From a virus, in IMG/VR virus record IMGVR_UViG_3300034121_000940, positions 1-64,000 of that record: a stretch of 64,000 nucleotides of DNA; one strand, 5' to 3'. Within the stretch, counting starts at the first letter, position 1. Every line of letters starts with the position of its first letter. Of this stretch, positions 16,545-61,210 are shown one piece after another. Made by a program: the position numbers and the translations under genes. Below the pieces are notes generated by a model. It made no database searches. It was not told the DNA's origin and saw nothing but the letters and a program-made list of their open reading frames with translations.

Positions 16545-19181
16545 TTAAGATTCTAAATATTCAACTTCTCCTCCGTTAGCAAGGAATGCTTCTAATTCTT
16601 CTGGTGTCATGTCTACTTCATCACCTTCAGTATAACCACCTTGTTCCATATAACCACCTGACTGACCATATGCAAATCTACCCATAGTTTCTTGACCGGT
16701 TTGATCAGGTCTAAACATACCTGTTTGTTGACCATATGCTACATAATCACCTCTATCTTTATTAGTAGATGCACCATAAAGATTATCAGAAGTAAAATTA
16801 TTAGCATACATCTCAGCTTGTTTCTTATTAGCATCAATATCTGACATAATACCTGTAAACATATCAATGCCAGAATTTAATTTATTAACAAAATTCTGAC
16901 CATCAAACTCTCTTTTTCTTTGTACATCTTGAGCAACTAAAGTGTCATCAGCAGGATTTCCAAAATCTTCAGAAGTAATTGTTTGACCTTTAGTTTGATT
17001 AGGATCCATTTCAACTGTTTTAACTTTTCCAGCATCAGGATTAGTTGGTACATTTTGATTCATGAATGAAGCAGAAGAACCCATTAATGTATTTGGATTT
17101 TCTTGTGGTTTCAACATACCTACTAAATTACCTGAAGTTGCAGTAGGATCAGATGCAGCAGATAATTTATTTGTAGGAGATTTAACAGCTCCTGCAATTT
17201 GGTATTTACCAAGTACACCACCATAACTAAAACCACGTTTACTTCTAATCATACTTTGCTCAAACATATCAGCTTCTTCAGCTTCTTGAGCTTCTCTTTC
17301 AGCTTCTTCCTGTGCTATGGTATCTTTTGATTTACCCTGTATAAATTGATGTAAAGTAGTTGGATACATTTCTGATAAAACCTGATTTTCTTGTTTTGTT
17401 GGTATAAATTCTTTTAAATTTTCATACTTAATAGGTTGATACTCTGGGAATTCAATACTATTTACATCTGGTAACTCACTGTTTGAAGTTTGTGCATATT
17501 GATTCATTATAAGATCTTCTAATGCAGGCATCTCAGGTAATTCTGGTACAGAAACTAATCTAGGTAAATCATAAGCTTTACCCTTTGAATCATGTGTTTT
17601 TATAACAACAGCTTCATATGGTGATGGTGAAGAATAATCAGTACCATTGTTTCTTAAATCTCTTTTTAGATCCTTCTCAGAATCATACATGTATTTTTCA
17701 GGAGACTTTTTATCAAAATCAGCTTGTCTTCTAGTTTGTTCAACACCTCTTTCAAATTCTCTACCTAGTTGTCTTTCACCTCTTTTTATTTGTCTTTTTG
17801 CTTTAGCTGGTAAACTATCCCATAATTCTTCAGACATACCATGTTTTTGATCTTTGGCAACAGCTTTTTCATAAGCAGCTTTAATCTCTTGTCCAGGTGT
17901 ATTTGGAACTTGCTTACCAGTTCCTTTACTATAATAGTCAGTCCATTCTTTTGGTCTACCTAATATACCTCTTTTATGTACAGTTCTTGCTACAGGAGTT
18001 AATCCAGATACAGGATCTTTATACAAAGCACCAGTCTTAACATCATATGGATTATTTGCAATATAATTTTCCTTTCCTAAAATTGCATCTCCTAATTTAT
18101 TAATAAAACCTTTTTGAGCTTGAGGCATATCAAAACCACCATAGTTAAACATGTCAGGTTGATTCTCTCCTATATAACCACCTTGTTGAGCAACCGGTTC
18201 AAATGATCCCATCTGACTTCCTTTTTTTCTACTTGCAGCAAGTTCTTGTGCAGATTGAATTAATTCAGGATTTTTAGAATTCATCATTTTTTCATACAAT
18301 GCATCTACAGCAGCTTTAGTAGAAATTTCTTTTAGCTTATCAGTAAATTGACTTTTTATTTTTGATACATCATCAGTAAGAGTATCTTTCTTATTACCTT
18401 GACCTATACTTTTAGATTCTTCAGCATCACCACCTTCTTGTTTTCTAACAAGTGCTAATACATTTTTAGTAAAGTTCTTTTTAGAACCACCATGTTTGTA
18501 ATAACCCGCATCATCACCTAGCATATCCCATTCTATAGGAGTGTAATCTGCTGTATACTCACTAATATCTTTTCCAAAATCAGAAAAGTCATCAGCTTTA
18601 TCTGCAGTATTTGCTACAAAATTAGAAAGTGTAGCAAGTCTATCTTCTAAACTAACATCTTCATCTTCATTAGAACTTAACTGATCATATGAAATTATTC
18701 CACCATCTTGAAATTCTGCTTCACTATTAGCAATTACATCTGGCTCTTCTTCATTAGCATAACTGTTATAATAATCCATAGCAGGATTACTTTCTTCCTC
18801 TTCTTCTGCTGGTTGTTCTTCTATTGATTGATATTCTGTTTGACCTATTTTTGATTCTTCAGCTTTGCCTTGTTCTTCTTCAGGTTGCTCTTCTTCTTCT
18901 GGAGCTTCCATCTCTTGCATAGCTTGAGTTAAAATAGGATATGCTATTTCTTTAGGTATACCTTTTGAAATCAATAACTTATAAACTTCTTCAGGTTCCA
19001 TATCATTGCTCAAGGCACCAGTTACATATTGTTTTAAGGCTTCCATTTGTTTTTGAGCCATTACATTTTCACTGGTAGTTTCAGCACCCATTTGAGCTTT
19101 TTGTAAAAACTTTTTTGTCTTGTTTATATATTCACCTTGTCCATTTGGAGCTTTGTAAATTCTAACAGTTCTTCTTTCCAT
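16545..19181 (-). CDS. 878-aa acidic internal virion/cargo protein with many xxGG motifs
   Basis: Low-complexity acidic protein containing FQDGG, YKHGG, KQEGG, AQQGG, FNYGG, FSYGG, MEQGG and a C-terminal DMTPEELEAFLANGGEVEY module. Confidence 0.6.
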   Translation of the reverse strand: MERRTVRIYKAPNGQGEYINKTKKFLQKAQMGAETTSENVMAQKQMEALKQYVTGALSNDMEPEEVYKLLISKGIPKEIAYPILTQAMQEMEAPEEEEQPEEEQGKAEESKIGQTEYQSIEEQPAEEEEESNPAMDYYNSYANEEEPDVIANSEAEFQDGGIISYDQLSSNEDEDVSLEDRLATLSNFVANTADKADDFSDFGKDISEYTADYTPIEWDMLGDDAGYYKHGGSKKNFTKNVLALVRKQEGGDAEESKSIGQGNKKDTLTDDVSKIKSQFTDKLKEISTKAAVDALYEKMMNSKNPELIQSAQELAASRKKGSQMGSFEPVAQQGGYIGENQPDMFNYGGFDMPQAQKGFINKLGDAILGKENYIANNPYDVKTGALYKDPVSGLTPVARTVHKRGILGRPKEWTDYYSKGTGKQVPNTPGQEIKAAYEKAVAKDQKHGMSEELWDSLPAKAKRQIKRGERQLGREFERGVEQTRRQADFDKKSPEKYMYDSEKDLKRDLRNNGTDYSSPSPYEAVVIKTHDSKGKAYDLPRLVSVPELPEMPALEDLIMNQYAQTSNSELPDVNSIEFPEYQPIKYENLKEFIPTKQENQVLSEMYPTTLHQFIQGKSKDTIAQEEAEREAQEAEEADMFEQSMIRSKRGFSYGGVLGKYQIAGAVKSPTNKLSAASDPTATSGNLVGMLKPQENPNTLMGSSASFMNQNVPTNPDAGKVKTVEMDPNQTKGQTITSEDFGNPADDTLVAQDVQRKREFDGQNFVNKLNSGIDMFTGIMSDIDANKKQAEMYANNFTSDNLYGASTNKDRGDYVAYGQQTGMFRPDQTGQETMGRFAYGQSGGYMEQGGYTEGDEVDMTPEELEAFLANGGEVEYLES

Positions 19182-27441: not shown

Positions 27442-28494
27442 TTAGATCACTTTAGTATTATAATTCAATCTTGCATAATTTCCAAATGTAGGTGCTTTAA
27501 ACATATCATAGTATTTAGAATACTGTGCTCTTCTGTTAGTCCACCACAATTGTTCCATCTCTTTAAAGTTTGGTGTATTAACCAAATTCAATGCATTGTT
27601 TCTTGCTGCCTTTAACTCAGGTATAATTACCTGTAATCTTTGAGCAACATCTTCACCATTTAAATATAAGTTCTCAAGAATTCTTTTCTTAAATGCATAT
27701 TCATAATAATCATTCAACATAGGATGATCAGGAACCATTAAGTTACCTTCACTATCTTGTAATTCTCCTTGGTAGTTTATATATACAGTTCCATCTTCAA
27801 ATGTTGTAAAAAGAAATCCATCTTTAATCCATCCTTGGTCCGGACTGTTATTATACAAATTAGGACAATCAGGATCTATGTTCTGACTGGTTTTCATTTT
27901 TAATGGAATTAAAGAAGTATATTTTCTAGTAAGACCAGAATGTACAACTTGAACTAACTCATATGACTCACCTTTACAGTTCATAAATACTCTTGGAGCT
28001 ACACATGTATCACCGTAAGGATTTGCTGGATCATAAGTAGGTGTTGTATTTGTCACAGGTGTATTAAGATCACAAGCAGCCGTGTGGTTGCAAGGATTAG
28101 AATTACAAGTTCTACAGTTAACCGTTCCTACAGCACAAGAATCAACACCTCCAGGAAACTCTTTATATTTTACAGTACCATATGGTACTTCTTGTATATT
28201 AGTTCCACCCACTCTACCATCATAACCTAAGTGCTCTGTTCTATCATAACAAGACATACCAAAATTCCATACATAGAAATCATCTGGTAACTTAACTTTA
28301 CCATGACATATGTCTAGTACAGCTTCTTTTGTTTGATTGATTCTAAGACCTAAGTCATAATTGATTTTTCTAGCAAGTTTAATTAACTGCTGAGGCTCAA
28401 TCATGTTCTCTAAAGCAAAGCTTGATAGATCAATCTGAACATCTTCCATTAACTGGTCAAATGTTCTGTATCTGAGTGTGTAGTTGAAATCCAT
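27442..28494 (-). CDS. Tail ring/tubular protein (crAss-like)
   Basis: KVKLPDDF and GFLFTTFEDGTVYINY...GNLMVPD pattern; immediately upstream of the muzzle gene; Cys-rich insertion. Confidence 0.6.
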   Translation of the reverse strand: MDFNYTLRYRTFDQLMEDVQIDLSSFALENMIEPQQLIKLARKINYDLGLRINQTKEAVLDICHGKVKLPDDFYVWNFGMSCYDRTEHLGYDGRVGGTNIQEVPYGTVKYKEFPGGVDSCAVGTVNCRTCNSNPCNHTAACDLNTPVTNTTPTYDPANPYGDTCVAPRVFMNCKGESYELVQVVHSGLTRKYTSLIPLKMKTSQNIDPDCPNLYNNSPDQGWIKDGFLFTTFEDGTVYINYQGELQDSEGNLMVPDHPMLNDYYEYAFKKRILENLYLNGEDVAQRLQVIIPELKAARNNALNLVNTPNFKEMEQLWWTNRRAQYSKYYDMFKAPTFGNYARLNYNTKVI

Positions 28495-29165
28495 TATCTT
28501 AAAGTATTTTGACCGTCATCACTACCATCAACTGGCATTTGAGCAATCATTGTTAATTCTTTTAATGCATACTGTTCTATCTCTGAAAATAAATAATCAG
28601 GAAATGGAAATGCTTGGTCTTGTTTAAGCTTACACTGTTCTTCTGGCTCACATTGATATTCTGTAATATCTCCGTCAAATATAGCTTCTACTCTTACAGC
28701 ATCCCAATCAATATTAGGAAAGTATAAGTAGCCATTTAAAAACCAAAAGTATTTTCTTTTATTATATTTAAATGTAGTTGACTTAGTTATAGAAATCCAT
28801 GTTCCAGGATTAGTTCTGTACATAATCTCACTACCATCTATTGAAGATACAGTACGTATAATAGGACCTAGTATACCATTAAGTATTGAAGGAATTTTAG
28901 TCTTAGTTCTTTTGAAGTAACATCCAGAATATACTCCAGTACAACCTGCTTCTATCTTATCTACATCAATAAGTTCTACAAAAGGTAGTACAGAAAATAT
29001 AGAACTTATCTTCATAAGTCTATATTGGTTATCTTCTCTTTTAAGTAATGCTTGACCATACTTAATAAGAGAATAATAAATTACTCTATCAGTTAAAAAA
29101 GGATCTTCTTTTACTGCTTTGAGAGTGTTTCTCATTCTTGATATTGCTTCACCAACTGTTGTCAT
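28494..29165 (-). CDS. Tail ring/adaptor protein (crAss-like)
   Basis: YFWFLNGYLYF...VRVEAIF...FPFPDYL pattern; translationally coupled to both neighbours. Confidence 0.55.
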   Translation of the reverse strand: MTTVGEAISRMRNTLKAVKEDPFLTDRVIYYSLIKYGQALLKREDNQYRLMKISSIFSVLPFVELIDVDKIEAGCTGVYSGCYFKRTKTKIPSILNGILGPIIRTVSSIDGSEIMYRTNPGTWISITKSTTFKYNKRKYFWFLNGYLYFPNIDWDAVRVEAIFDGDITEYQCEPEEQCKLKQDQAFPFPDYLFSEIEQYALKELTMIAQMPVDGSDDGQNTLR

Positions 29166-29743
29166 AATTCAAATTCATTATATGTTTTTAGAGCCTTCTG
29201 AGTTTTTATTGCTTCTTTTCCTGCATAGTATAATTGTTGGTATACCTTTTTGATCTTTTTATTATTCTCTACTACTCTATACATGTTCCAGTTTTCTGGA
29301 TATGCTTTAGCAACAAGTCTTTTAAAATCTCTACAGGCAATAAAACTCCAGTACTCTCTATTTTTCATTTTATGTTTTAGTGCATAACTTGTAAAGAATA
29401 TCTTTGCTAACTTCCCGTCTGTAGCAAAATTATTATTTGACACTTCTACACCATATTGTTTGGATTTAGCAAAGTCAACATTTCTTTTCTTACTCTGCTG
29501 ACATGTTCCTACAAAAAGCCATCCAATCTGATCTGGTAGTTGTACACCATCTCTTGTGTCTACTACTAAATTGTAAACAGCTCTATTGAAAGTTTTTGTA
29601 ATATTTTTTAACATGCTGTTTTCATACTTAGCATATCTAGGATATAACTTTTTAAATTGATCAAAGAACTCTTTGTCTAAGAGGTTGAATACTTCAGGTC
29701 TATATCTTGGTGCGGATAAATCAGGTGTCTTAAACTCTCTCAT
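29162..29743 (-). CDS. IHF/HU-like DNA-binding protein (conserved in crAss-like structural modules)
   Basis: Basic protein; helix followed by DGVQLPDQIGWLFV (HU-like beta strand); syntenic position before the ring genes. Confidence 0.5.
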   Translation of the reverse strand: MREFKTPDLSAPRYRPEVFNLLDKEFFDQFKKLYPRYAKYENSMLKNITKTFNRAVYNLVVDTRDGVQLPDQIGWLFVGTCQQSKKRNVDFAKSKQYGVEVSNNNFATDGKLAKIFFTSYALKHKMKNREYWSFIACRDFKRLVAKAYPENWNMYRVVENNKKIKKVYQQLYYAGKEAIKTQKALKTYNEFEL

Positions 29744-29745
29744 AA

Positions 29746-29803
29746 TAATATAGTAAAAATTAGTTATAATAGCAAATATAGGTATAAAACAAAACCCCTA
29801 CAA
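29746..29803 (-). promoter_or_regulatory. Tandem promoters: TTG-N20-TATATTTG (29773-29803, Bacteroidota consensus) and TTG-N20-TATATTA (29746-29775)
   Basis: Read directly from the reverse complement; the first fits the Bacteroidetes -33/-7 consensus TTG-N19-21-TAnnTTTG. Confidence 0.55.
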
Positions 29804-29815
29804 GTGCAGGGGTTT
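29786..29815 (-). terminator. Intrinsic terminator
   Basis: Minus-strand RNA AAACCCCUGC-ACUU-GUAGGGGUUU then UGUUUU; a G-U pair favours minus orientation. Confidence 0.75.
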
Positions 29816-29864
29816 GTCCGTAGTTGTAAGAATAAACCAACAAACTTCAACTAACTAATTATAT
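29786..29864 (-). ncRNA. Candidate small regulatory RNA (3'-UTR-derived): seed stem-loop plus terminator
   Basis: UAGUUG-AAG-[UUUGUUGGUUUAUU]-CUU-A-CAACUA hairpin (29821-29853) directly before the terminator; loop complementary to leaders at 40403-40412, 47249-47259 and 51755-51764. Confidence 0.4.
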
Positions 29865-32273
29865 TTAGTCTTTAATAAGTCTAACAGAAAATCCTGAAGT
29901 ATTCCCACCATCATATAATATAGCTGATTGTGATAGATAATTTAAGTTAAAAATCCAAGTAGAGTTTGAAAGATAAGGATAACTTGTAGAACTCCAAAGA
30001 TTACAATCCGTAAATTTACCAACTGAAACACCATTAAATTGAATTGCTCCACTACCAACTGCAGTAAATCCTGAACTATTTGTTGCATTTGTATTTGGAC
30101 TAGCCCAATGAGTTGTACCTGTTTCTTTTAATTTACCTCCAGCAACTGTACCACCTCCTAAATAATTTATTAAAGTTACAAACTCATCATAAGTTGGTAT
30201 ATGATATCCTGCAGGTGCAATACCTCTTGGATCACTTATAGCATACCCGTTATACAATTTTCCATAACTACAGTTATTTGCAGGATCATTATCATAATAT
30301 TTCCATGCACCTGTAGTTAAACTAGCCCATTCTATTGGATCTTGTACTTGAGGAATTGGATCTCCATTTTGGTATGTAGTTACATCTAAGTTACAACTTG
30401 TCCATGTTTGAGTACCAATAACTATGTCTATACATAAAGCTGGACCTTTTACAAGTCTTACAGAGTGACCCCAATTTTTTGTATAGTAACCTCTGAATAA
30501 AGTAGGATCTGTATAATATACATCATAACTACCGGCCTCATTACTACTAATTTCTGTAGAAGTCCACCAACGAGTAGTATCACCAATACCTTCAAAAGTT
30601 CCTGCATCATTCAAAACACCAGCAGGAAGTGCTGTAAATCCCGAACTGTTAGTAGCATTATTAGGAGATAACCAATGTGTAGTACCTGCCTCTTTCATGG
30701 CAGCACCAGCTACAAGATCACCTCCTAAGTAATCAGATAATGTAGCAACTTCACAATCTGTAGGTATATGATATCCAACAGGTGCTAGTCCTCTAGGATC
30801 ATTTACTGCATACCAGTTGTAAAGTTTACCATACAGTGGTTCTGTAGAAGGATCATTGTTATAGTAACACCACGCACCTGTTGTAAGATTGCTCCATTCA
30901 ATAGGATCAGTTACTTCTGGTATTGAGTCTCCATTACTATAAGTAGTAACAGCCAAGTTACATCCTGTCCATATTTGAGATCCAATTGTAACATCAGAAC
31001 ATGTAACAGGTAAAGGTTCTCCTTTTACAAGTCTAACAGACATTCCTTTGTCTTTACTAATACTAGATGTTGTATAAGCTTGATTTGTTGAATATGCTAA
31101 ATGCATAAATGAACTTGCAGATGCATTGGTTTCTGTAGAACTCCACCAGTAACCATAATACCCAAGATCTTCAAAATTACTACCAGAACGTCTACCACCA
31201 GGTAGTGCTGTAAAAAAACTTGAATTAGTTGGAGAAATTATATTAGCTTTTTGCCAATATAAAGCATTTACATCTGTAGCACAAGTTCTTTCTAATGAAC
31301 CTCTTTCTTTTAATGCTAAACCTGCAGTTGTATTCCCACCTACTGTATCAACTAAAGTTTGCCATTCAGTATGTGTAGGTATATGGTATCCTTCTGGAGC
31401 TAAACCTCTGGGGTCATTCACTGCATACCAGTTGTATAACTTACCAAATGCAGGTTCTGTATCTGGATTATTGTCATAATAACACCATGCTCCAGTAGTC
31501 AATGCAGCCCATTCAACAGGATCTTCAACATGAGGAATTGGATCACCGTTTCTATATGTTGTTACACTTAAATTACATTGAGTCCAAGTTTGATCACCAA
31601 TAACAATATCTCCTGAACATTTTGGTGGATTTACAAATGGTGTAAAAGGATGACCTGCCAAAGCAGACATAACTTTTTTAAGTTGTTGTAACATGTCACC
31701 CAATGCTGCTCTATGTTCTAAATAATGATTATAATCAGGTTCTTGATAATCTGTATAATCTACTGTATATGTAACCGTATTATCAGGTGCTAAAGGATAA
31801 CCCATTAAATTTACTGTATATGTATGAATACCTGTAAGCTTTTCTGGTGAACCATTTGTTATAAATGAATTTTGAATTTGCTGTTTTTTTATTTGAAAGG
31901 CAATTCTTTTTGCCATGAACCCATCATTTTCATTATAGAATAAATCACATATAGCATTATAATTACTAAGTGGATTGCATTTTTCATTATATAAACCTTC
32001 AGGTATTATAAAAACACCATTCTTATAATAAGAAGGTTCACGATAAAATGCTACAGATGCTAAAAAATGTTCATTTACTGCTTTTAACCATGCATCATGA
32101 GTTGCTCTAGATATCGTAAATATATCACTGTCATATCCCATAAATGGTGCTGTTGTATTTTCTGTACAAGTATTACCAACAGCACCAAGTAAATTACAAT
32201 AATCATCCATATCAAAATTACATACTCTTGATATTTGATTATTCCAAATTTCAAAATTTCTTATAAACCCCAT
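29865..32273 (-). CDS. Protein with three tandem Fib_succ_major (FISUMP, C-type-lectin-like fold) domains; probable receptor-binding/adhesin
   Basis: Three copies of IGxQxWTxCNLxVTTYxNGDxIP...GKLYNxYA...PxGYHIPT...FTA...WxST...SVRL(V/I)K. Confidence 0.85.
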   Translation of the reverse strand: MGFIRNFEIWNNQISRVCNFDMDDYCNLLGAVGNTCTENTTAPFMGYDSDIFTISRATHDAWLKAVNEHFLASVAFYREPSYYKNGVFIIPEGLYNEKCNPLSNYNAICDLFYNENDGFMAKRIAFQIKKQQIQNSFITNGSPEKLTGIHTYTVNLMGYPLAPDNTVTYTVDYTDYQEPDYNHYLEHRAALGDMLQQLKKVMSALAGHPFTPFVNPPKCSGDIVIGDQTWTQCNLSVTTYRNGDPIPHVEDPVEWAALTTGAWCYYDNNPDTEPAFGKLYNWYAVNDPRGLAPEGYHIPTHTEWQTLVDTVGGNTTAGLALKERGSLERTCATDVNALYWQKANIISPTNSSFFTALPGGRRSGSNFEDLGYYGYWWSSTETNASASSFMHLAYSTNQAYTTSSISKDKGMSVRLVKGEPLPVTCSDVTIGSQIWTGCNLAVTTYSNGDSIPEVTDPIEWSNLTTGAWCYYNNDPSTEPLYGKLYNWYAVNDPRGLAPVGYHIPTDCEVATLSDYLGGDLVAGAAMKEAGTTHWLSPNNATNSSGFTALPAGVLNDAGTFEGIGDTTRWWTSTEISSNEAGSYDVYYTDPTLFRGYYTKNWGHSVRLVKGPALCIDIVIGTQTWTSCNLDVTTYQNGDPIPQVQDPIEWASLTTGAWKYYDNDPANNCSYGKLYNGYAISDPRGIAPAGYHIPTYDEFVTLINYLGGGTVAGGKLKETGTTHWASPNTNATNSSGFTAVGSGAIQFNGVSVGKFTDCNLWSSTSYPYLSNSTWIFNLNYLSQSAILYDGGNTSGFSVRLIKD

Positions 32274-32275
32274 CT

Positions 32276-33625
32276 TTAAACTGTATATTTTAATTCATAC
32301 TTATATCTGTGAAACAGTGCATAATCATTAGCCCAAACAAAAGGTACAGTAGCTAATACAAGCTCATTAAATGCTTTTAACCAAGCCTGTGTTCTATCTT
32401 TGTTAGGAGTATTTATTTCATCAATTACATCAGCTAAAACACTACTCCAACTATTTGTAGTTGGATCCCATGCATGACTAGTAAGGTAAGTTGGATCAAG
32501 TGGATCAATACCCCATTTTATAAGTTGACCCGGTTGTCCTGTTGGTGGTATTTCTCCAAATTGTACTGCATCTAACCAAACAAATTTTACACCTGTATTA
32601 AGATTTATCATTGGAAATATTTCAGCTAATGTTTTATTATTTAAAGTAGGCCATTTTATTTCAGACCAAACTCTAAATGAACATTCAGGACAACCACTTA
32701 AATAATTATAATTTTCTAAACCTCCTTTATATAATATTAACTGATCTGCAATATTACCAGGATCCCATTGTGTAAAGTTTAATGAAGTATTTAAATATTC
32801 TGTACCATATTGCTCATTAATTAAATTTTCATTTAAAGATTTAAAGTATTCATCTCTATTTCTTCTATAGGATGTTGAAGCAACTGAGTAAGATTCAAAA
32901 CATTCTACACAACATATATTTTTTAGTTCTGTACATGTTGGCATATATCGTGGATCATTCATAAAATCCATAGGTATGACTGCAAATTGTGTATCACCAT
33001 AAAGAGTATTAACCAATCTACCCCCTAAATAAGGTTGTGTTTCTTGAGGTGGATCAATTATCATTGAATAGCAATCTGATGTATATACAAAGTGAACTGT
33101 TTCTTTACAACCTTTACTATCTGTAACAGTAAGTTTAATATTACTTACTTTAATGTTTTTATCAATGTCTCCTGTTCTAATAGAATTTGCTGCAATACAA
33201 GTTAAATTTAAAGTAGGTAATGTTGTAGAACCAGAAATAAAATGACCAACAAATTCTCCTTGAGCAATCTCCCATTGATATGTATACGGTCCTTCACCAT
33301 TTGTAATTTCTGAAGTTAATGAAGGTAAATTGTTTTCATCAGTGTTTGCAATAATATTTACAGTTAATTGACAATGTCTACATATTACATCAAGTATATT
33401 TTGTAAAGCATTTTCTAAATTTTCAAAATTATTAACTACACTGAAAGTAGTACCACAATATATAATATCTCCAGCTGTATATTGTATACATGTTGCATCA
33501 AGTATTTCAGAACAGTTATATGATTCTGTACATACTGTAGGATCAGAACATATTGTGTATGATTTTGGTGTATAGTTTAAAATTACTTTCTTATTACTAC
33601 CACCACAATTTTTACAAACAGCCAT
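32276..33625 (-). CDS. Cys-rich fibre/structural protein with SprB/PKD-like Ig domain
   Basis: CIQYTAG...C...LENALQNILDVIC docking-like module; NGEGPYTYQW...LTVTDSKGC. Confidence 0.5.
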   Translation of the reverse strand: MAVCKNCGGSNKKVILNYTPKSYTICSDPTVCTESYNCSEILDATCIQYTAGDIIYCGTTFSVVNNFENLENALQNILDVICRHCQLTVNIIANTDENNLPSLTSEITNGEGPYTYQWEIAQGEFVGHFISGSTTLPTLNLTCIAANSIRTGDIDKNIKVSNIKLTVTDSKGCKETVHFVYTSDCYSMIIDPPQETQPYLGGRLVNTLYGDTQFAVIPMDFMNDPRYMPTCTELKNICCVECFESYSVASTSYRRNRDEYFKSLNENLINEQYGTEYLNTSLNFTQWDPGNIADQLILYKGGLENYNYLSGCPECSFRVWSEIKWPTLNNKTLAEIFPMINLNTGVKFVWLDAVQFGEIPPTGQPGQLIKWGIDPLDPTYLTSHAWDPTTNSWSSVLADVIDEINTPNKDRTQAWLKAFNELVLATVPFVWANDYALFHRYKYELKYTV

Positions 33626-40206: not shown

Positions 40207-40401
40207 TTATTTATTTGCTGTATACCTGTCAGCTCCCCAAACATTTTTGTTTACTGTTGGTGCTGTAGGAACAACTGGTTTCTTATCTTGTAATCCTTTT
40301 TCATAAAAGGACAAACAACTTGAACAACATGATGTTCCATCACTTGCTCTTCTCTTTTGACATCCGCAAGACATTCTTGCTCCACAGTTACTACAATTCA
40401 T
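40207..40401 (-). CDS. Small Cys-rich (putative Zn-binding) protein
   Basis: CSNCGARMSCGC...CCSSC; AAACCAACAA leader directly before the ATG. Confidence 0.7.
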   Translation of the reverse strand: MNCSNCGARMSCGCQKRRASDGTSCCSSCLSFYEKGLQDKKPVVPTAPTVNKNVWGADRYTANK

Positions 40402-40420
40402 ATTGTTGGTTTTTTAAAGT

Positions 40421-46228: not shown

Positions 46229-47245
46229 TTATGAGTTCCAAAATTTTTCACAAGCAGTATTCAAGTCTTTTAAAATATCCTCATTTAAAGGATTTTTCAA
46301 GTGCTCTACTACATCTGACACATTTCTTCCTAACAATGCGTTAGTCTTAGTGTGGTAAATATAACCATCTGCCTTATTAACAATATACTTAAAAAATACG
46401 GAATCTCTAACAATTGATTTAATTTTTAGTGTTTCCATATCCATATTAGCTGTATCCATAAATGTTTTAGCAGCTCTTTCTTTATTCTGTTCTCCACCTA
46501 AGCCAGCAATGTAGTTATCCATATTTTCATAGATCACATCATTAGGAGTAGACTTTCTATATTGTGTACTATTGATATCCACCACTTTAGCAATGTAGAA
46601 TAACTTAGTACTATTTTTGTCAAATAATTTTTGTAGTTCAGATAGAGCTTTGTTACGTAATTTTTTGTACTCTGTTCTTACCATTACAGTTTCTTCTTCT
46701 TTATCTAAATAAAACTTTGGTGGAACAGCCTTAGCTCTTGCATCCTCTAAACTTTTTGCAACTAGTGAAAATCCACCAGCTTCAATTGCATATAATTTAA
46801 TTCTATCATAAGGATCTCTTGGGTCTAAGAACAAAGGTTCATTACCACATGAAATTGAAATCTTATTCCAGAATTCAGCATTGTTTGGCTTTAGTAATGT
46901 AACCTTAGCCCAAAATTCTTTATCTTCTATATCAATAACATTTGCTGCTAGTTCTTGCTCTAACTCTGCAACTGCTGATCTAATCTCTCTTATTCTAGCT
47001 TCTTTTTCTGATATAGGAAGTAATTTGATCTCCGGAGCAAACTCATTTAATCCAGTTACATATCTTACTACACCATTATTGTCTAAACAAGCTAGTTGTT
47101 CATTATGTGTTACCCCATCAAATAAACTCATACCGTAATCTTCTAATCCCATGTTAGAAGCTGAGCTATCAAAATAAGGTCTTACAGCAATAGCTGTTTT
47201 TTTAACAGAGCCCTTACCGGTCTCTACCATTGTGAAATTTTCCAT
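46229..47245 (-). CDS. Conserved crAss-like capsid-module protein downstream of the major capsid gene
   Basis: YVTGLNE...NAEFW...LFLDPRDPYDRIK pattern; synteny; AAACCAACAAA leader. Confidence 0.6.
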   Translation of the reverse strand: MENFTMVETGKGSVKKTAIAVRPYFDSSASNMGLEDYGMSLFDGVTHNEQLACLDNNGVVRYVTGLNEFAPEIKLLPISEKEARIREIRSAVAELEQELAANVIDIEDKEFWAKVTLLKPNNAEFWNKISISCGNEPLFLDPRDPYDRIKLYAIEAGGFSLVAKSLEDARAKAVPPKFYLDKEEETVMVRTEYKKLRNKALSELQKLFDKNSTKLFYIAKVVDINSTQYRKSTPNDVIYENMDNYIAGLGGEQNKERAAKTFMDTANMDMETLKIKSIVRDSVFFKYIVNKADGYIYHTKTNALLGRNVSDVVEHLKNPLNEDILKDLNTACEKFWNS

Positions 47246-47277
47246 TGTTTTGTTGGTTTTTGTTTTTGTAAATTTAA

Positions 47278-48126
47278 TTAATTATTCTGGCACATTTCCA
47301 GATACGTGTTGTATTTTCTATCTAAATAGATAGTTGCATCTTTATAAAGTAAGTCTAAAACTTTTTTACAATCATCTGAATAATAATGAACTTGAAATAA
47401 ACTATTTTTTAAACCCCCTTCTTTATTACTATGACTTGGGTATTTACTTTTAATTCCTAATTCTTTAGTACAGAATATAATAAATTCAAAAATTGTTTCA
47501 ATTGTCCCACATAATGAAATCTGAGGTCTAATATCATAGTTATAAACTCCACCGTCACCATCAACAACACCTCTCCAAAAATCTTTTGAACTTTTTAAAG
47601 ATTCATGTGGTATAGCCGTCCAACTTTTTTTATTATTAAAACCTAAGTCTTTAAGTTTACCATGTAAAACTTTAGAAAAAATTTTAATAGAACAAGAATT
47701 TTCTGCATAAAATTTTACTTCTTTGTTACAATTAAAAAAAAGTTTAAACTTTTCTAAATGCTCCTTATCTCTTAACTCAATTTCTAATTCAATTGAGTAT
47801 TCTTTTTCTTTTCTGATATGACCATCAGCATATAAAAAACCTATCCAATACAAAGCTTCTGGGGTCAATGTATCAAAAACAGTTTCATCTAATGTAGAAC
47901 CTCTACTAAGTCTCCACTGTGTTGATTTATCTCTTATTAACCCAGATTGCTGTAATATTGTTCTGATAGTTTTTCTAGTCATCTTCATGACTTCCTCAAT
48001 TTTAGTTTGAGGAAGCCCTTGAAGATACATACTTTTAACAGTTTCTTTTTGCTCTGTTGTAATTTTACTCAAATTAGCTACCGCATTATAAGGTCTATGC
48101 GGATAAATTCTTTTCTTTTTATCCAT
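47278..48126 (-). mobile_element. Free-standing double-motif LAGLIDADG homing endonuclease with N-terminal HTH
   Basis: YWIGFLYADG and FWRGVVDGDG motifs, LYKDATIYLDRK tail; start likely ATG 48126, downstream of its own promoter. Confidence 0.85.
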
Positions 48127-48186: not shown

Positions 48187-49803
48187 TCAAAAACTTCCTC
48201 CCGTAATAGGGTTTCTCATAACAATTTTCAATACTTTAGTTGGATCTTTAACCCAAATAGCAGGCATTGTTTGAGACATCATTACACGGTAACCATTGAA
48301 CTGACCTGAAGATTGGAACCCTTGAGTTCTACCCATGTAGTCCATAGTACCATTTTGGTACCACCATTTCAATTGGTTATCCCAAGATAATTTCAACAAG
48401 TAAATGTTGTCATTAGTATTATCTGTGATATCAAAGATAATGAATGAATAAGAAGATAATGGGAAACCATCAATGATTGGGTTCTCAATATCATTTGTAT
48501 GAACATTGTCAAATGCTGGGTTCAATACAAACTTCACGTTAGCCAAGAATGGGATAACATATGAAGTGTATGCAAATCCAAAGTTTAAGTCCATACCTTT
48601 ACCAGTGATAGCACCGATATCAGCAGCCTGGATCAATAAACCTGAAGATACTGCTTCACGTTTGATAGCCTCATTTACCATTCTCATACCACCCATACCA
48701 GTTTGTACAACTAGAGAGCGTTTTGGATCTGGACCTTGGAATTCAACTTTACCGTTGAAGAAGTTGTAGATTTCACCACGGAATAAATCCAATGTGAAGT
48801 TATTCTTGTTGTAGATTCTTTTGAAAGAGTTATCTAACTGTTTCCAAAGACCCACTGACAATCTTAAATCATCTGGACCATCTTGTTTGATTCTACCACC
48901 TTGTCCCCACATTAAGTAAGTCTCAATATCTTGAGCAATCTTAGATAAGTGAGCAGCTTCCATAGTAGTTAAGAAAGTTCTAGATAAATCACCATTGTCA
49001 AAAGCTTTTTTAACTTTGTCTTTACCTAATTTCTTAACCATATCATCTAGGTTAGCAATTGATGGATCATTTAAGTTTGTATCAAATGTTCTCCAGATTT
49101 CAGTTACAGGAACTGTACCATCTGCATTCATACCACCTTTGATCATCAAATCTGCTCTAGAAGATACTGTGTAGTGAACGTGAGCTTCAGCACCTCCTAC
49201 ATAATTGTAGAATTCACGGAAACCAGCTCTAGTTTGAATGTCTGAGAATCTCTCACCATACTCACCACGAGCAGAACCTTTACGGAAAACTTTAGTTCCA
49301 TTAGCTAAGTACTTGTTATCCAAGAACTTGAAGTTATCATTGTTTACTAACTGTACAGTATAGATAAATCCATCACCTACAGGTAAGATATCTTCAGCTG
49401 TTACATAAAGTTCAACACCGTTGTATTTGTCATATGTGAACATATCACCATGTCCAAACTCACGTCTGTTTAATTTAATTCTGAAAGTTGAACCCTCAAT
49501 ACCTTTGAATTCATTATCCGGTTCAATGTCCTCAATAATGTAAGGAAGATCAATAGATACAGGAGTCTGCCATCTATATTCACCTCTTGCATTGTCTACC
49601 ATAATTACATTCTTTCCACCGAAAGAAGACATTTGGTACAAAGGCATTTCAACTTTTTGGGACATAGCCCATAAGTCTACTGGACCTAAATCCATTGGTT
49701 GAGCATCTTTCAACATGTTTACTAAGTGGTATGAGTCAACGTGAGATGTAGCATTGTATGCAGTATCACGTAGGAATATACCATTGTTTAAAACTGGAGT
49801 CAT
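48187..49803 (-). CDS. Major capsid protein (crAss-like, HK97 fold)
   Basis: 538 aa; order portal > scaffold > this gene; DLGPVDLW, EYGERFS, GLWKQL, LNPAFD motifs; many C-ending codons suggest high expression. Confidence 0.85.
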   Translation of the reverse strand: MTPVLNNGIFLRDTAYNATSHVDSYHLVNMLKDAQPMDLGPVDLWAMSQKVEMPLYQMSSFGGKNVIMVDNARGEYRWQTPVSIDLPYIIEDIEPDNEFKGIEGSTFRIKLNRREFGHGDMFTYDKYNGVELYVTAEDILPVGDGFIYTVQLVNNDNFKFLDNKYLANGTKVFRKGSARGEYGERFSDIQTRAGFREFYNYVGGAEAHVHYTVSSRADLMIKGGMNADGTVPVTEIWRTFDTNLNDPSIANLDDMVKKLGKDKVKKAFDNGDLSRTFLTTMEAAHLSKIAQDIETYLMWGQGGRIKQDGPDDLRLSVGLWKQLDNSFKRIYNKNNFTLDLFRGEIYNFFNGKVEFQGPDPKRSLVVQTGMGGMRMVNEAIKREAVSSGLLIQAADIGAITGKGMDLNFGFAYTSYVIPFLANVKFVLNPAFDNVHTNDIENPIIDGFPLSSYSFIIFDITDNTNDNIYLLKLSWDNQLKWWYQNGTMDYMGRTQGFQSSGQFNGYRVMMSQTMPAIWVKDPTKVLKIVMRNPITGGSF

Positions 49804-50478: not shown

Positions 50479-51753
50479 TTAAAATGTTCTTCTAAAAATA
50501 TTAGTAGAACGTTGTATTGTTTTTTGTGGTTTGTTTGAAGCTCTCTCTTCTCCCGCACCTGTGTTAGTTGAAGAACTAGATAATTTTCTAGACTCTTCCG
50601 TTTTCAAGTTTCTTACTGTTTTTTCTACAGCAGCCTTAGAACCTTGTTCTTTTATTTTTGTTCTATACCCATCAGGATCTTGTAATAACCAAAGTGCTTC
50701 AGCAATTAAACCATGGTTAGGTTCAACAAACTGATACTTCTCTAACAAGTGTCCTAACAAGTTTGTATTCTTTCCTGATATAGAAGGATAATTTGGTTGA
50801 ACTAATCCTGAATATAAAACACTTTGTGTTTTCTTATCCAACTTAACTCCGCCAATTTCTCCTGCTGCAAGTGTATTATATACACTATCAGTATAAGCCT
50901 TAGCTTGTTTTTGTTGTTGTTCTTTTTTATGTTCTTGCTCAGCTAACTGTCTTGCAACAATTTCTTCTTGCATTCTATCTAACTTAGGTTTGAACTGATT
51001 AGCTTTTTGTTCAAGCTTATTCATGTCCGCCCAGTCTCTGATTTCTGATTCAATTTCTTCTGCTGTTCCAAAGTTAGTAGCCCAAAGATATTGTCTAGCA
51101 ATTTCTTCTTGGTCATACTCATTAGAAGGATCTAAAGCAGTAATTTCCTCAACTTGAGCAAGAGTTCTAAAAAGACCTTTTAAATCTTGTCCGCCATCAG
51201 CAACATATTTAGCTGCAATCTGAAGTTCTTCTGGAAGTGCATTAAAGAATTCTTTAGGAACATTTTGTTTAATCTTTTCTTCTCTTTCTTGGAAGTTAGC
51301 TTCAAACAATTCTCTGAAGTCTTTAGTAGTATACTCTTCTAATGGTTTATCATCATCAAAAGGAATAAGTGTACCTTCTTCAATCATCTTCTGAGCTAAA
51401 TCATAAAGACCATCTTTATCTACTTTAGGTCTTCCTGTTTTAGATCCTCCTGCTTCTTCATTTTGAGTTATTAAATTATCTAACTCAGAAATAGTTTCTT
51501 CAACTAAAGCTTTGTCTTCAGCAGCTTGAGCTTTTTCCTCAGCTGTAGCAGACGGTGTGTCAAGGAACGATGTGTCAATGTTTTCTTTACTGAACATTGT
51601 TTTTGGTTTATCTTCTTCAGCTTTTCCATCTTCTGGAATCATTACATTAGCTGCACCTGGATTACCAAATAGTTCATCAATGTTAACATCAACTTGCTCT
51701 ACCGTTGTAGAATCTTGAATTTGATCTTCAAGATTAGTTGCTTCTTTGTTCAT
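50479..51753 (-). CDS. Acidic putative capsid scaffolding/assembly protein
   Basis: Acidic, coiled-coil protein between portal and capsid genes; basic C-terminal tip; AAACCAACAA leader. Confidence 0.6.
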   Translation of the reverse strand: MNKEATNLEDQIQDSTTVEQVDVNIDELFGNPGAANVMIPEDGKAEEDKPKTMFSKENIDTSFLDTPSATAEEKAQAAEDKALVEETISELDNLITQNEEAGGSKTGRPKVDKDGLYDLAQKMIEEGTLIPFDDDKPLEEYTTKDFRELFEANFQEREEKIKQNVPKEFFNALPEELQIAAKYVADGGQDLKGLFRTLAQVEEITALDPSNEYDQEEIARQYLWATNFGTAEEIESEIRDWADMNKLEQKANQFKPKLDRMQEEIVARQLAEQEHKKEQQQKQAKAYTDSVYNTLAAGEIGGVKLDKKTQSVLYSGLVQPNYPSISGKNTNLLGHLLEKYQFVEPNHGLIAEALWLLQDPDGYRTKIKEQGSKAAVEKTVRNLKTEESRKLSSSSTNTGAGEERASNKPQKTIQRSTNIFRRTF

Positions 51754-51776
51754 GTTGTTGGTTTTAGTTTATAATT

Positions 51777-60901: not shown

Positions 60902-61210
60902 TTATACTGTTTTTGGTCTTTTAATTATTAACTCTCTTACTGCATCTGAAAGTTCACTAACATGCTTGGCAAGATTTTTAATTTCAAGCTGAGTCAACTC
61001 CTGAATAGCTTGATATTTTAATTGGTTTTCTTGTTGTACTAACTCAATTTTTCCTTTAAGTTTTCCAAGTTCTTCAGATGTTTTTGTATGATTATTTATT
61101 AATAGCTCAATGTCTTTTCTAGTATCATTGTAAGCTGTTCTTAAAAAGAAACCAAAAATTGTAATTATTGTTGCTGCAATAAATAATATAACTGTAAGCA
61201 TTTCATTCAT
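60902..61210 (-). CDS. Membrane-anchored coiled-coil protein (holin/antiholin/spanin-like)
   Basis: N-terminal TM segment LTVILFIAATIITIFGFFL followed by coiled coil. Confidence 0.55.
   Translation of the reverse strand: MNEMLTVILFIAATIITIFGFFLRTAYNDTRKDIELLINNHTKTSEELGKLKGKIELVQQENQLKYQAIQELTQLEIKNLAKHVSELSDAVRELIIKRPKTV

What the first reader, a model, noticed from the sequence alone, without database searches (positions are those of the whole stretch)
29786..29864. Candidate phage small RNA whose hairpin loop is antisense to a shared translation-initiation leader
Seen in sequence: after the Fib_succ gene stop, the minus strand reads UAGUUG-AAG-[UUUGUUGGUUUAUU]-CUU-A-CAACUA, a 9-bp stem with a 14-nt loop, then a short linker and an intrinsic terminator. 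The exact complement of the loop core, AAACCAACAA, lies 1-4 nt upstream of three start codons: the putative scaffold (51755-51764), the conserved post-capsid gene (47249-47259, 11-nt match) and the small Cys protein (40403-40412). Established: a seed loop followed by a terminator is typical sRNA architecture, and Bacteroidota mostly initiate translation without Shine-Dalgarno pairing. Inference: a phage RNA could control a set of morphogenesis genes by pairing with a common leader, as a repressor or as a guide. Alternatives: a plus-strand decoy for a leader-binding protein, or a DGR-type homing hairpin after the Fib_succ gene.
Basis: partly seen in the sequence, partly recalled or inferred. 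Interest (0 to 1): 0.85.

Follow-up and report, generated by a model that had tools for sequence, protein, structure and literature searches.

The report
Conserved phage hairpin antisense to gene leaders
A crAss-like phage and all its sampled relatives keep an RNA hairpin whose open loop is the exact complement of a short leader placed just before the start codons of the same few head genes, which suggests an untested phage antisense RNA switch.

Summary
The window is part of a 121.7-kb crAss-like phage genome.

- **Structure:** at 29786-29853 (-) a hairpin (SL1) with loop UUUGUUGGUUUAUU is followed by an intrinsic terminator and then a promoter.
- **Conservation of SL1:** every relative selected by protein homology that had enough sequence keeps SL1 with the core UUGUUGG (80 of 80 and 77 of 77). 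This holds although the upstream gene varies and the terminator is swapped for unrelated ones.
- **RNA level:** stem variants stay paired only on the sense RNA strand.
- **Leaders:** the complementary AACCAACA lies just before the ATG of the scaffold-like and post-capsid genes (80 of 80 each), and of a small Cys protein in 7 of the 11 genomes checked. There are up to three tandem copies. In 5 of 5 complete relatives there is exactly one antisense copy, which is SL1.
- **Rejected readings:** the DGR and plus-strand decoy alternatives.
- **Not shown:** a discrete transcript, any effect on translation, and the host.

Best reading (about 0.5): an antisense RNA element in a 3'UTR that pairs with these leaders. 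First readers of this scan noted the same pair in two other genomes (e1-6191845, e1-6143466). I score it a new variant of a known kind, interest 0.68.

The parts
29845..29853 (-). SL1 5' arm (TAGTTGAAG)
   Evidence: Read and folded. Relatives carry GUURCAG, GUCGCAG and similar, always paired with the 3' arm.
29831..29844 (-). SL1 loop UUUGUUGGUUUAUU, with the 'anti-leader' core UUGUUGGUU
   Evidence: The complement AAACCAACAA lies at 29834-29843 on the plus strand. The core is invariant in alignment A1, 58 distinct sequences. Predicted unpaired probability is 0.79-0.98.
29821..29830 (-). SL1 3' arm (CTTACAACTA, one bulged A)
   Evidence: It contains the conserved ACAAC, which in relatives could also pair with the loop's UUGUUG (alternative structure).
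29786..29817 (-). SL2, an intrinsic terminator: A-tract, 8-bp GC stem, loop ACUU, U-tract
   Evidence: Three stem pairs show changes on both sides across relatives. It is replaced by unrelated terminators in subclades that keep SL1.
29747..29775 (-). Promoter of the 193-aa gene (-35-like TTGCTA, 17 nt, -10-like TATATT), inside a conserved TAYATTTG...TTTTTAGTATATTA block
   Evidence: (9 of 12 match) and invariant columns. It resembles the crAss-like middle/late promoter with -35- and -10-like blocks described in passages of preprint 10.1101/2020.03.07.982082.
29162..29743 (-). Conserved 193-aa gene downstream, followed by CrAss_Ring_2 at 28494-29165
29865..32273 (-). Upstream 802-aa Fib_succ_major fibre gene, whose 3'UTR holds SL1; this gene is variable among relatives
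   Evidence: PF09603, E = 1.3e-117. One search shows unrelated C-terminal coding sequence upstream of SL1 in relatives.
51755..51764 (-). Leader AAACCAACAA, 1 nt before the ATG of the 424-aa scaffold-like gene (50479-51753)
   Evidence: AACCAACA lies near the ATG in 80 of 80 relatives.
47249..47259 (-). Leader AAACCAACAAA, 3 nt before the ATG of the 338-aa post-capsid gene (46229-47245)
   Evidence: Present in 80 of 80 relatives, 44 of them with two copies.
40403..40412 (-). Leader AAACCAACAA, 1 nt before the ATG of the 64-aa Cys-rich protein (40207-40401)
   Evidence: The orthologous leader is kept in G001, G002, G008, G010, G011 and G012.

Best explanation
SL1 is a conserved RNA hairpin at the 3' end of the transcript that stops at the adjacent terminator. 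The SL1 plus terminator module is about 70 nt, sits in a 3'UTR and is built like an sRNA. Its open loop (core UUGUUGGUU) base-pairs with the A/C-rich AACCAACA(A) leader that lies 0-5 nt before the start codon of a small conserved regulon: the scaffold-like gene, the gene after the major capsid gene and a small Cys-rich protein, plus a few others in some genomes. This phage has almost no Shine-Dalgarno sequences, so the leader is probably the ribosome-loading element of these mRNAs. Pairing with SL1 would then occlude it and lower or time translation of head-assembly genes as tail-fibre transcripts accumulate. Shown: the structure, its conservation, its RNA-level strand specificity, and the co-conserved perfect 9-10 nt complementarity. 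Inferred: that the pairing occurs in vivo, that a stable fragment accumulates, and that the effect is repression.
For: (1) SL1 with the core TTGTTGG is present upstream of the 193-aa gene in 80 of 80 IMG/VR relatives found with that protein at 57-91% aa identity. It is present in 76 of 79 loci found with the ring protein; 2 loci were too short, and in 1 (L158) it lies about 900 nt further upstream. (2) The intergenic element is far better conserved than the flanking genes. The upstream gene is unrelated between relatives. (3) RNA helix: 95% of stem cells are paired against 41-57% in slid controls. The 111 parsed distinct contexts give 11 stem haplotypes. Eight are fully paired with G.U allowed, and 3 haplotypes of the window's own subclade (10 contexts) carry one mismatch or a bulged A. 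C at arm position 3 occurs only opposite G (20 of 20), and the G.U pairs exist only on the sense strand. The window clade has a C-G to A-U exchange. (4) The open-loop fold is the MFE in 58 of 58 sequences, with core unpaired probability 0.79-0.98. (5) SL1 survives replacement of the terminator by unrelated ones and insertion of a 260-aa gene between terminator and promoter, so it belongs to the upstream RNA end. (6) Leaders: 80 of 80 scaffold and 80 of 80 post-capsid loci have AACCAACA at the ATG. There are up to 3 tandem copies. In five complete relatives, 5 of 36 AAACCAACA sites are SL1, one per genome, and 21 of 36 have an ATG within 14 nt. (7) For the post-capsid gene the motif lies between a terminator and the ATG with no recognisable promoter, so an RNA-level role is more likely than an operator. 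(8) Duplex ranking puts the three named genes and a 79-aa gene (70904-71143) first among 116 genes.
Against: There is no expression evidence. The only RNA-library data were Logan contigs of relatives, which cannot show ends or levels. There is no conserved promoter for a free-standing sRNA. There is no loop-leader covariation, because both cores are invariant, so the pairing itself is not proven by compensatory change. Positions flanking the core do not co-vary: G002 has loop GGUUG with leader CAACAAAC. An alternative fold that buries UUGUUG against URACAA fits the alignment equally well at 97.7% paired. RNAalifold chose that fold. The single-genome statistics are modest. An RNA from tail-fibre operons may be too scarce to titrate abundant head mRNAs (inference). 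The host, and therefore its RNA chaperones and RNases, is unknown.
Confidence: 0.5

Rival explanations
1. SL1 is a protein-bound or purely structural RNA element that serves the adjacent terminator or the mRNA 3' end. It could be a nut/put-like antitermination signal, a processing site or a stability hairpin. On this reading its loop is conserved for a protein, and the complementarity to the leaders is coincidental.
For: SL1 always sits 3-13 nt before an intrinsic terminator, whatever that terminator is. It has no promoter of its own. The loop is invariant, as protein-binding loops often are. No covariation links loop and leader.
Against: It leaves a perfect 9-10 nt match between two independently conserved elements unexplained. 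Leader composition predicts 0.04 AACCAACA leaders, yet 6 are seen. The only antisense intergenic copy in each of 5 complete relatives is SL1. Other terminators shown, such as the one after the capsid gene, have no such hairpin.
Confidence: 0.2
2. The shared sequence works as double-stranded DNA. One phage or host DNA-binding regulator recognises AAACCAACAA/TTGTTGGTTT at the leaders (downstream of promoters) and at the SL1 site (upstream of the 193-aa gene promoter).
For: A duplex site reads the same in either orientation, which would explain one inverted copy. Tandem copies at some leaders resemble operator arrays.
Against: The arms flanking the SL1 copy are conserved as an RNA helix, with G.U pairs valid only on the sense strand. 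All leader copies are in sense orientation, 0-5 nt from the ATG. This includes the post-capsid gene, where the motif follows a terminator and no promoter is evident. Spacing between tandem copies varies from about 10 to 16 nt, which is not helical phasing.
Confidence: 0.1
3. The interaction runs the other way, or in competition. Abundant leader-bearing head mRNAs pair with SL1 in nascent tail transcripts and change termination at SL2. Alternatively, SL1 mimics a cellular RNA partner of the leader. Either way the base pairing is real but translation repression is not its purpose.
For: The evidence for complementarity and conservation is the same as for the main reading. SL1 abuts the terminator. 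A bistable alternative fold exists.
Against: Nothing specific supports it. SL1 lies upstream of the terminator stem and is not part of it. No candidate cellular partner was examined because the host is unknown.
Confidence: 0.12
4. It is a DGR-type homing hairpin, or a plus-strand decoy RNA. These are the first reader's alternatives.
For: A hairpin follows a Fib_succ_major (C-type-lectin-like) fibre gene in this genome.
Against: There is no RVT_1 match in the genome, which CheckV rates 100% complete, while the control genomes do match. Relatives have unrelated genes upstream of the same hairpin. Plus-strand RNA would carry A.C mismatches in the stem in most haplotypes.
Confidence: 0.02

Closest known systems
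P1/P7 C4 and P4 CI phage antisense RNAs (recalled from memory, not checked in any call)
   Same: Each is a small structured RNA made from a longer phage transcript and not from its own promoter. Its loops are complementary to short target sites at or near a ribosome-binding region of phage mRNAs, with more than one target site.
   Different: Those RNAs control immunity or anti-repressor operons in enterobacterial temperate phages. They are cut out by RNase P and act on targets in the same transcription unit. Here the targets are head-morphogenesis genes 10-22 kb upstream, no processing is shown, and the phage is a crAss-like virus with no SD sequences.
3'UTR-derived bacterial sRNAs such as CpxQ, SroC and DapZ (recalled from memory)
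   Same: The element lies directly after a stop codon and shares the mRNA's intrinsic terminator. A conserved single-stranded seed sits just upstream of the terminator hairpin, and the targets are translation-initiation regions.
   Different: Those depend on Hfq and RNase E in enterobacteria. Here the parental gene is interchangeable between relatives while the 3' module is constant, and neither chaperone nor nuclease is known.
Bacteroides sRNAs such as GibS (recalled from memory)
   Same: They are base-pairing regulators in a phylum that lacks Hfq and SD-led initiation, and they target the A-rich region around start codons.
   Different: They are chromosomal with their own promoters. There is no sequence or Rfam relationship: no family reaches its gathering score, and the best is rnk_pseudo at 29.9 bits against 55.
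Lambda nut / HK022 put antitermination hairpins (recalled from memory)
   Same: They are conserved RNA hairpins in phage transcripts that lie ahead of terminators.
   Different: Those act in cis on RNA polymerase and have no complementary target set. No N-like factor or boxA was looked for here.

Membership tests
Any Rfam family | Covariance-model score at or above the family's gathering threshold | tested here: not met
   There were 0 matches in the 64-kb window at gathering thresholds. In a permissive scan of 29650-29950 the best were rnk_pseudo at 29.9 bits against 55 and MicC at 25 against 90.
Trans-acting base-pairing sRNA (general class) | Conserved, accessible single-stranded seed | tested here: met
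   The core UUGUUGG is invariant in 58 distinct sequences. Its unpaired probability is 0.79-0.98.
Trans-acting base-pairing sRNA (general class) | Rho-independent terminator at the 3' end | tested here: met
   The terminator stem covaries.
Trans-acting base-pairing sRNA (general class) | Own conserved promoter | tested here: not met
   Conservation begins 0-20 nt before the stem, right after the stop codon of unrelated upstream genes.
Trans-acting base-pairing sRNA (general class) | Discrete stable transcript and a measurable effect on targets | not testable with these tools
   Only Logan contigs of relatives were available in two RNA libraries and one library of unknown kind. Contigs show no ends or levels.
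Trans-acting base-pairing sRNA (general class) | Target complementarity conserved across relatives | tested here: met
   80 of 80 scaffold and 80 of 80 post-capsid loci. Cys-protein leaders are kept in 6 further genomes.
3'UTR-derived sRNA | Lies between a stop codon and that gene's terminator | tested here: met
   In L158 and L396 the module stays with the upstream gene when a gene is inserted before the promoter.
3'UTR-derived sRNA | Released by processing or an internal promoter | not testable with these tools
   No raw reads were available.
Diversity-generating retroelement | Reverse transcriptase in the element or genome | tested here: not met
   No PF00078 match in G000, rated 100% complete, while the controls were positive.
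Crassvirales-like phage (the genome, not the RNA) | crAss-type major capsid and tail ring proteins | tested here: met
   PF23898 Crass_capsid, E = 4.7e-28. PF25702 CrAss_Ring_2, E = 2.5e-21.
Lambda nut / HK022 put antitermination element | boxA/boxB or paired put stem-loops with a cognate factor, giving read-through of downstream terminators | not tested
   Only the position ahead of a terminator is shared. No factor was searched for.

The most novel reading that the evidence does not exclude
In this SD-less phage clade, AACCAACA is a dedicated translation-initiation signal for a few head genes. It is present in 1-3 tandem copies and sometimes repeated just after the ATG. It would work by base-pairing with an RNA partner. 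SL1 would be the phage's own trans-acting partner or competitor for that signal, making a phage-encoded RNA 'code' that switches a morphogenesis regulon on or off at the ribosome-loading step.
Probability: 0.12. Interest if true: 0.9.

Novelty: new variant of a known kind. Interest (0 to 1): 0.68.

Why it matters
Post-transcriptional control in crAss-like phages is uncharted. So is the question of how mRNAs are selected for translation where Shine-Dalgarno pairing is not used. This locus offers a compact hypothesis that can be mutated: a 10-nt loop, a 10-nt leader and a regulon of three conserved genes, kept across more than 100 environmental phage genomes. If the pairing is real, it would be the first regulatory RNA described for this phage group in the literature I could search. 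It would also provide a natural handle for studying SD-independent initiation. If it is not real, the invariant loop still marks an unknown RNA-protein or termination signal.

Tried and rejected
- **Rfam:** nothing reached a gathering score.
- **GenBank phage relatives:** blastn of 28500-32300 and tblastn of the 193-aa protein found nothing. The capsid protein's best cultured match is only 28% identical (Leptolyngbya phage Lbo-JY46), so no cultured model with RNA-seq is at hand.
- **Cellulophaga phage phi14:2:** in the half of the record I loaded (50001-100000, 44 minus-strand CDS), no CCAAC-type leader appears and no shared 8-mer other than A/T-rich strings. The system is therefore clade-specific. 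The other half of that genome was not examined.
- **Sequencing runs:** three runs held small shares (0.06, 0.06, 0.27). All were Logan contigs of relatives. One 269-nt contig in an RNA library spans 29588-29856, but contigs break where strains diverge and may derive from DNA. This says nothing about expression or ends.
- **Target identity:** the PDB sequence search gave nothing meaningful for the 338-, 424- and 193-aa proteins. An AlphaFold model of the 338-aa protein was too poor to search (mean pLDDT 44.2). Pfam and PHROGs gave no hit for the 338- and 64-aa proteins. They gave one sub-threshold Pfam hit for the 424-aa protein (DUF5799, E = 0.0061, below its cut-off). 'Scaffold-like' rests only on gene position and on its acidic, coiled composition.
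- **Conserved micro-ORF across SL1:** rejected. Indels that are not multiples of 3 occur in the loop and linker.
- **Cis hairpin at the 79-aa gene leader (UUUGUUG/CAACAAA):** the upstream half is probably the promoter's TAnnTTTG box and so not transcribed (inference).
- **IMG/VR pattern scan with a 17-nt SL1 pattern:** Of the 81 sites I parsed in 80 loci, about half were chance hits inside unrelated coding regions. It therefore gives no prevalence figure, but it supplied divergent true members.
- **Literature:** four full-text searches found no description of a regulatory RNA in crAss-like phages (listings only). I read passages only of preprint 10.1101/2020.03.07.982082. Its supplementary promoter tables could not be seen and may bear on the promoter assignment.
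- **Covariance model:** I did not build one.

Full report
**What the window is.**
- The 64-kb window is the first half of a 121,672-bp genome with 31% G+C. IMG/VR and CheckV class it as a 100% complete virus record.
- Nearly all genes in the window lie on the minus strand.
- Pfam finds a crAss-type major capsid protein at 48187-49803 (PF23898, E = 4.7e-28). It finds a crAss tail ring protein 2 at 28494-29165 (PF25702, E = 2.5e-21). It also finds a triple Fib_succ_major fibre protein at 29865-32273.
- No near relative is in the GenBank phage collection. The capsid protein's best cultured match is 28% identical. The host is therefore not established.
- Only 2 of 116 called genes have an SD-like 4-mer upstream. 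The leaders are 47% A.

**The observation.**
- SL1 consists of a 5' arm at 29853-29845, a 14-nt loop at 29844-29831 and a 3' arm at 29830-29821 with one bulged A.
- A 3-nt linker follows, and then a terminator hairpin with a U-tract at 29817-29786.
- The two hairpins are the predicted minimum-energy fold: -26.5 kcal/mol, z = -3.48, 0 of 200 shuffles as stable.
- The terminator scan ranks the second hairpin first in the 5-kb region scanned.
- The 10-mer AAACCAACAA occurs four times in the whole genome. Three copies lie 1-4 nt before the ATGs of the 424-aa, 338-aa and 64-aa genes. The fourth is the complement of the loop.

**Is it more than chance in this genome?**
- The leader motif clearly is. 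Six of 116 leaders carry AACCAACA, where leader composition predicts 0.04. Six of the 16 genome-wide copies fall in the 1.2% of strand positions that are leaders.
- The loop-leader match is only suggestive on this genome alone. Six of 11,445 noncoding 10-mers have their reverse complement in three or more leaders. The other five are almost pure A/T.
- A duplex-energy ranking puts a 79-aa gene (70904-71143, outside the window), the post-capsid gene, the Cys gene and the scaffold-like gene first among 116 genes. However, 2 of 300 shuffled loops do as well.

**Relatives decide the matter.**
- The 193-aa protein downstream of the element finds 102 IMG/VR relatives, of which 80 were kept (57-91% aa identity). 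All 80 have the element directly upstream, in 57 distinct versions.
- The ring protein finds 221 relatives, of which 80 were kept. Of the 79 loci I scanned, 76 have the element in the expected place and 2 are too short.
- In the remaining one, L158, the element lies about 900 nt further upstream. A 260-aa gene has been inserted there between the terminator and the promoter.
- The coding sequence upstream of SL1 is unrelated between relatives, so the Fib_succ gene is only this phage's version.
- In alignment A1 (58 distinct sequences) the loop core, the terminator flanks and a promoter block are invariant, although the neighbouring protein is only about 60% identical.

**It is an RNA structure on the sense strand.**
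- Across 111 parsed distinct contexts there are 11 stem haplotypes. One further context was an unrelated chance hit and was dropped.
- Eight of these haplotypes are fully paired if G.U is allowed. The other 3, all from the window's own subclade (10 contexts), carry one mismatch or a bulged A.
- C at the third arm position occurs only opposite G (20 of 20), whereas U there sits opposite A or G.
- The commonest haplotypes contain one or two G.U pairs, which would be A.C mismatches on the other strand or in DNA.
- The window's own clade has re-registered the stem and shows a C-G to A-U exchange.
- The terminator stem has three pairs with changes on both sides.
- A caveat: the loop core's invariance is by construction, because those contexts were selected by the motif. 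The unbiased test is its presence in all loci selected by protein homology.

**A competing fold.** RNAalifold preferred pairing of the loop's UUGUUG with the following URACAA. That helix is paired in 97.7% of cells. Single-sequence folding nevertheless gives the open-loop hairpin as the minimum in 58 of 58 sequences, with core unpaired probability 0.79-0.98. A switch between the two folds cannot be excluded.

**What travels together.**
- More divergent members came from a 17-nt pattern scan.
- These members keep SL1 but carry quite different terminator hairpins.
- In L396, as in L158, a gene is inserted after the terminator.
- SL1 plus a terminator is therefore a unit at the end of the upstream transcript, separate from the promoter that follows.
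- That promoter has a -35-like TTGCTA, a 17-nt spacer and a -10-like TATATT ending 3 nt before the ATG. It fits the description of crAss-like middle/late promoters with -35- and -10-like blocks used by host RNA polymerase. I read passages of preprint 10.1101/2020.03.07.982082; its supplements were not seen.

**The leaders are conserved too.**
- AACCAACA lies at the ATG in 80 of 80 scaffold-gene loci and 80 of 80 post-capsid loci. Of the post-capsid loci, 44 have two copies.
- In five complete relatives there are 36 AAACCAACA sites. Five are SL1, exactly one per genome, and 21 have an ATG within 14 nt. A few of these 21 may be internal codons.
- In five more divergent genomes I fetched 15 of the 57 AACCAACA sites, choosing those near the expected genes. 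These showed the motif before the scaffold gene in the two genomes where I fetched that site (G011, G012) and before the post-capsid gene in all five. It stood before the small Cys-protein gene in four of them (G008, G010, G011, G012). G012 has up to three tandem copies.
- For the post-capsid gene the motif sits between the capsid gene's terminator and the ATG, with no recognisable promoter. This argues that the leader acts in the RNA.
- In the half of Cellulophaga phage phi14:2 that I loaded, none of the 44 CDS leaders has such a motif. It is therefore not a general feature of A-rich leaders.

**Mechanism.**
- Two short elements are each held invariant across a large clade, and they are perfect complements over 9-10 nt. 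One is displayed in a hairpin loop next to a terminator. The other is at the ribosome-loading site of the same three genes.
- The simplest account is RNA-RNA pairing, with SL1 acting as a 3'UTR-borne antisense regulator of these leaders. It most likely represses or times their translation.
- I put this at about 0.5. The direction of the effect, the existence of a stable fragment and the pairing in vivo are all inferred.
- Rivals are:
  - a protein-bound or termination-related hairpin with coincidental complementarity (0.2);
  - pairing that serves termination control or mimicry instead of repression (0.12);
  - a shared double-stranded DNA operator (0.1);

**Comparison with known systems.**
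- No Rfam family is matched.
- By architecture it is closest to 3'UTR-derived sRNAs and to the operon-embedded antisense RNAs of phages P1/P7 (C4) and P4 (CI). These comparisons are recalled from memory and were not tested.
- It fails the 'own promoter' criterion of a classical sRNA gene.
- Four literature searches found no regulatory RNA described for crAss-like phages (listings only).
- First readers of this scan independently noted the same hairpin-leader pair in two other genomes (e1-6191845, e1-6143466). This agrees with the clade-wide conservation shown here but is not independent evidence of function.

**Verdict.** It is a new variant of a known kind, interest 0.68. The main gap is the absence of any transcript or functional data.

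Noticed in passing
window 47278-48126 (-): A LAGLIDADG-type homing endonuclease gene (PF14528; phrog_4645, E = 4.2e-40) sits between the capsid gene and the post-capsid gene. Some relatives share this insertion (L243, L246, L253), while most have only the capsid terminator there. The AACCAACA leader is kept in both arrangements.
   Followed up: partly
L158:2576-3358 and L396 (after its SL1): In two relatives a gene is inserted between the SL1-terminator module and the promoter of the 193-aa gene. It is about 260 aa in L158 and starts M(I/L)TRKRLF(F/Y)DIETSF, which may be an exonuclease-like motif.
   Followed up: no
L475, L476, L478 (relatives G012, G010); L256-L319: The leader motif is tandemly repeated. 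There are two copies before many post-capsid genes and three in G012, with spacing of about 10-16 nt. In many scaffold genes a further ACCAACAA lies just after the ATG, in codons 3-6.
   Followed up: partly
genome 71151-71162 (-), beyond the window: The first gene of the leftward arm (79 aa, 70904-71143) has a leader with a 12-nt match (AACCAACAAACT) to the complement of the SL1 loop plus stem. It gives the best predicted duplex, at -14.0 kcal/mol.
   Followed up: partly
whole genome: Only 2 of 116 called genes have an SD-like 4-mer upstream. The closest cultured capsid relative is a cyanobacterial phage (Leptolyngbya phage Lbo-JY46, 28% identity), so the assumed Bacteroidota host is unproven.
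   Followed up: partly
window, e.g. upstream of 16545-19181, 60902-61210 and 29162-29743: A recurring TTTTTAGTATATTA block with an upstream TTG-containing block precedes several genes. It is probably the clade's version of the crAss-like middle/late promoter.
   Followed up: partly
window 40207-40401 (-): The 64-aa protein has CxxC...CxC...CCxxC spacing (MNCSNCGARMSCGCQKRRAS...). It is conserved across subclades together with its leader, and may be a zinc-binding nucleic-acid-binding protein.
   Followed up: no
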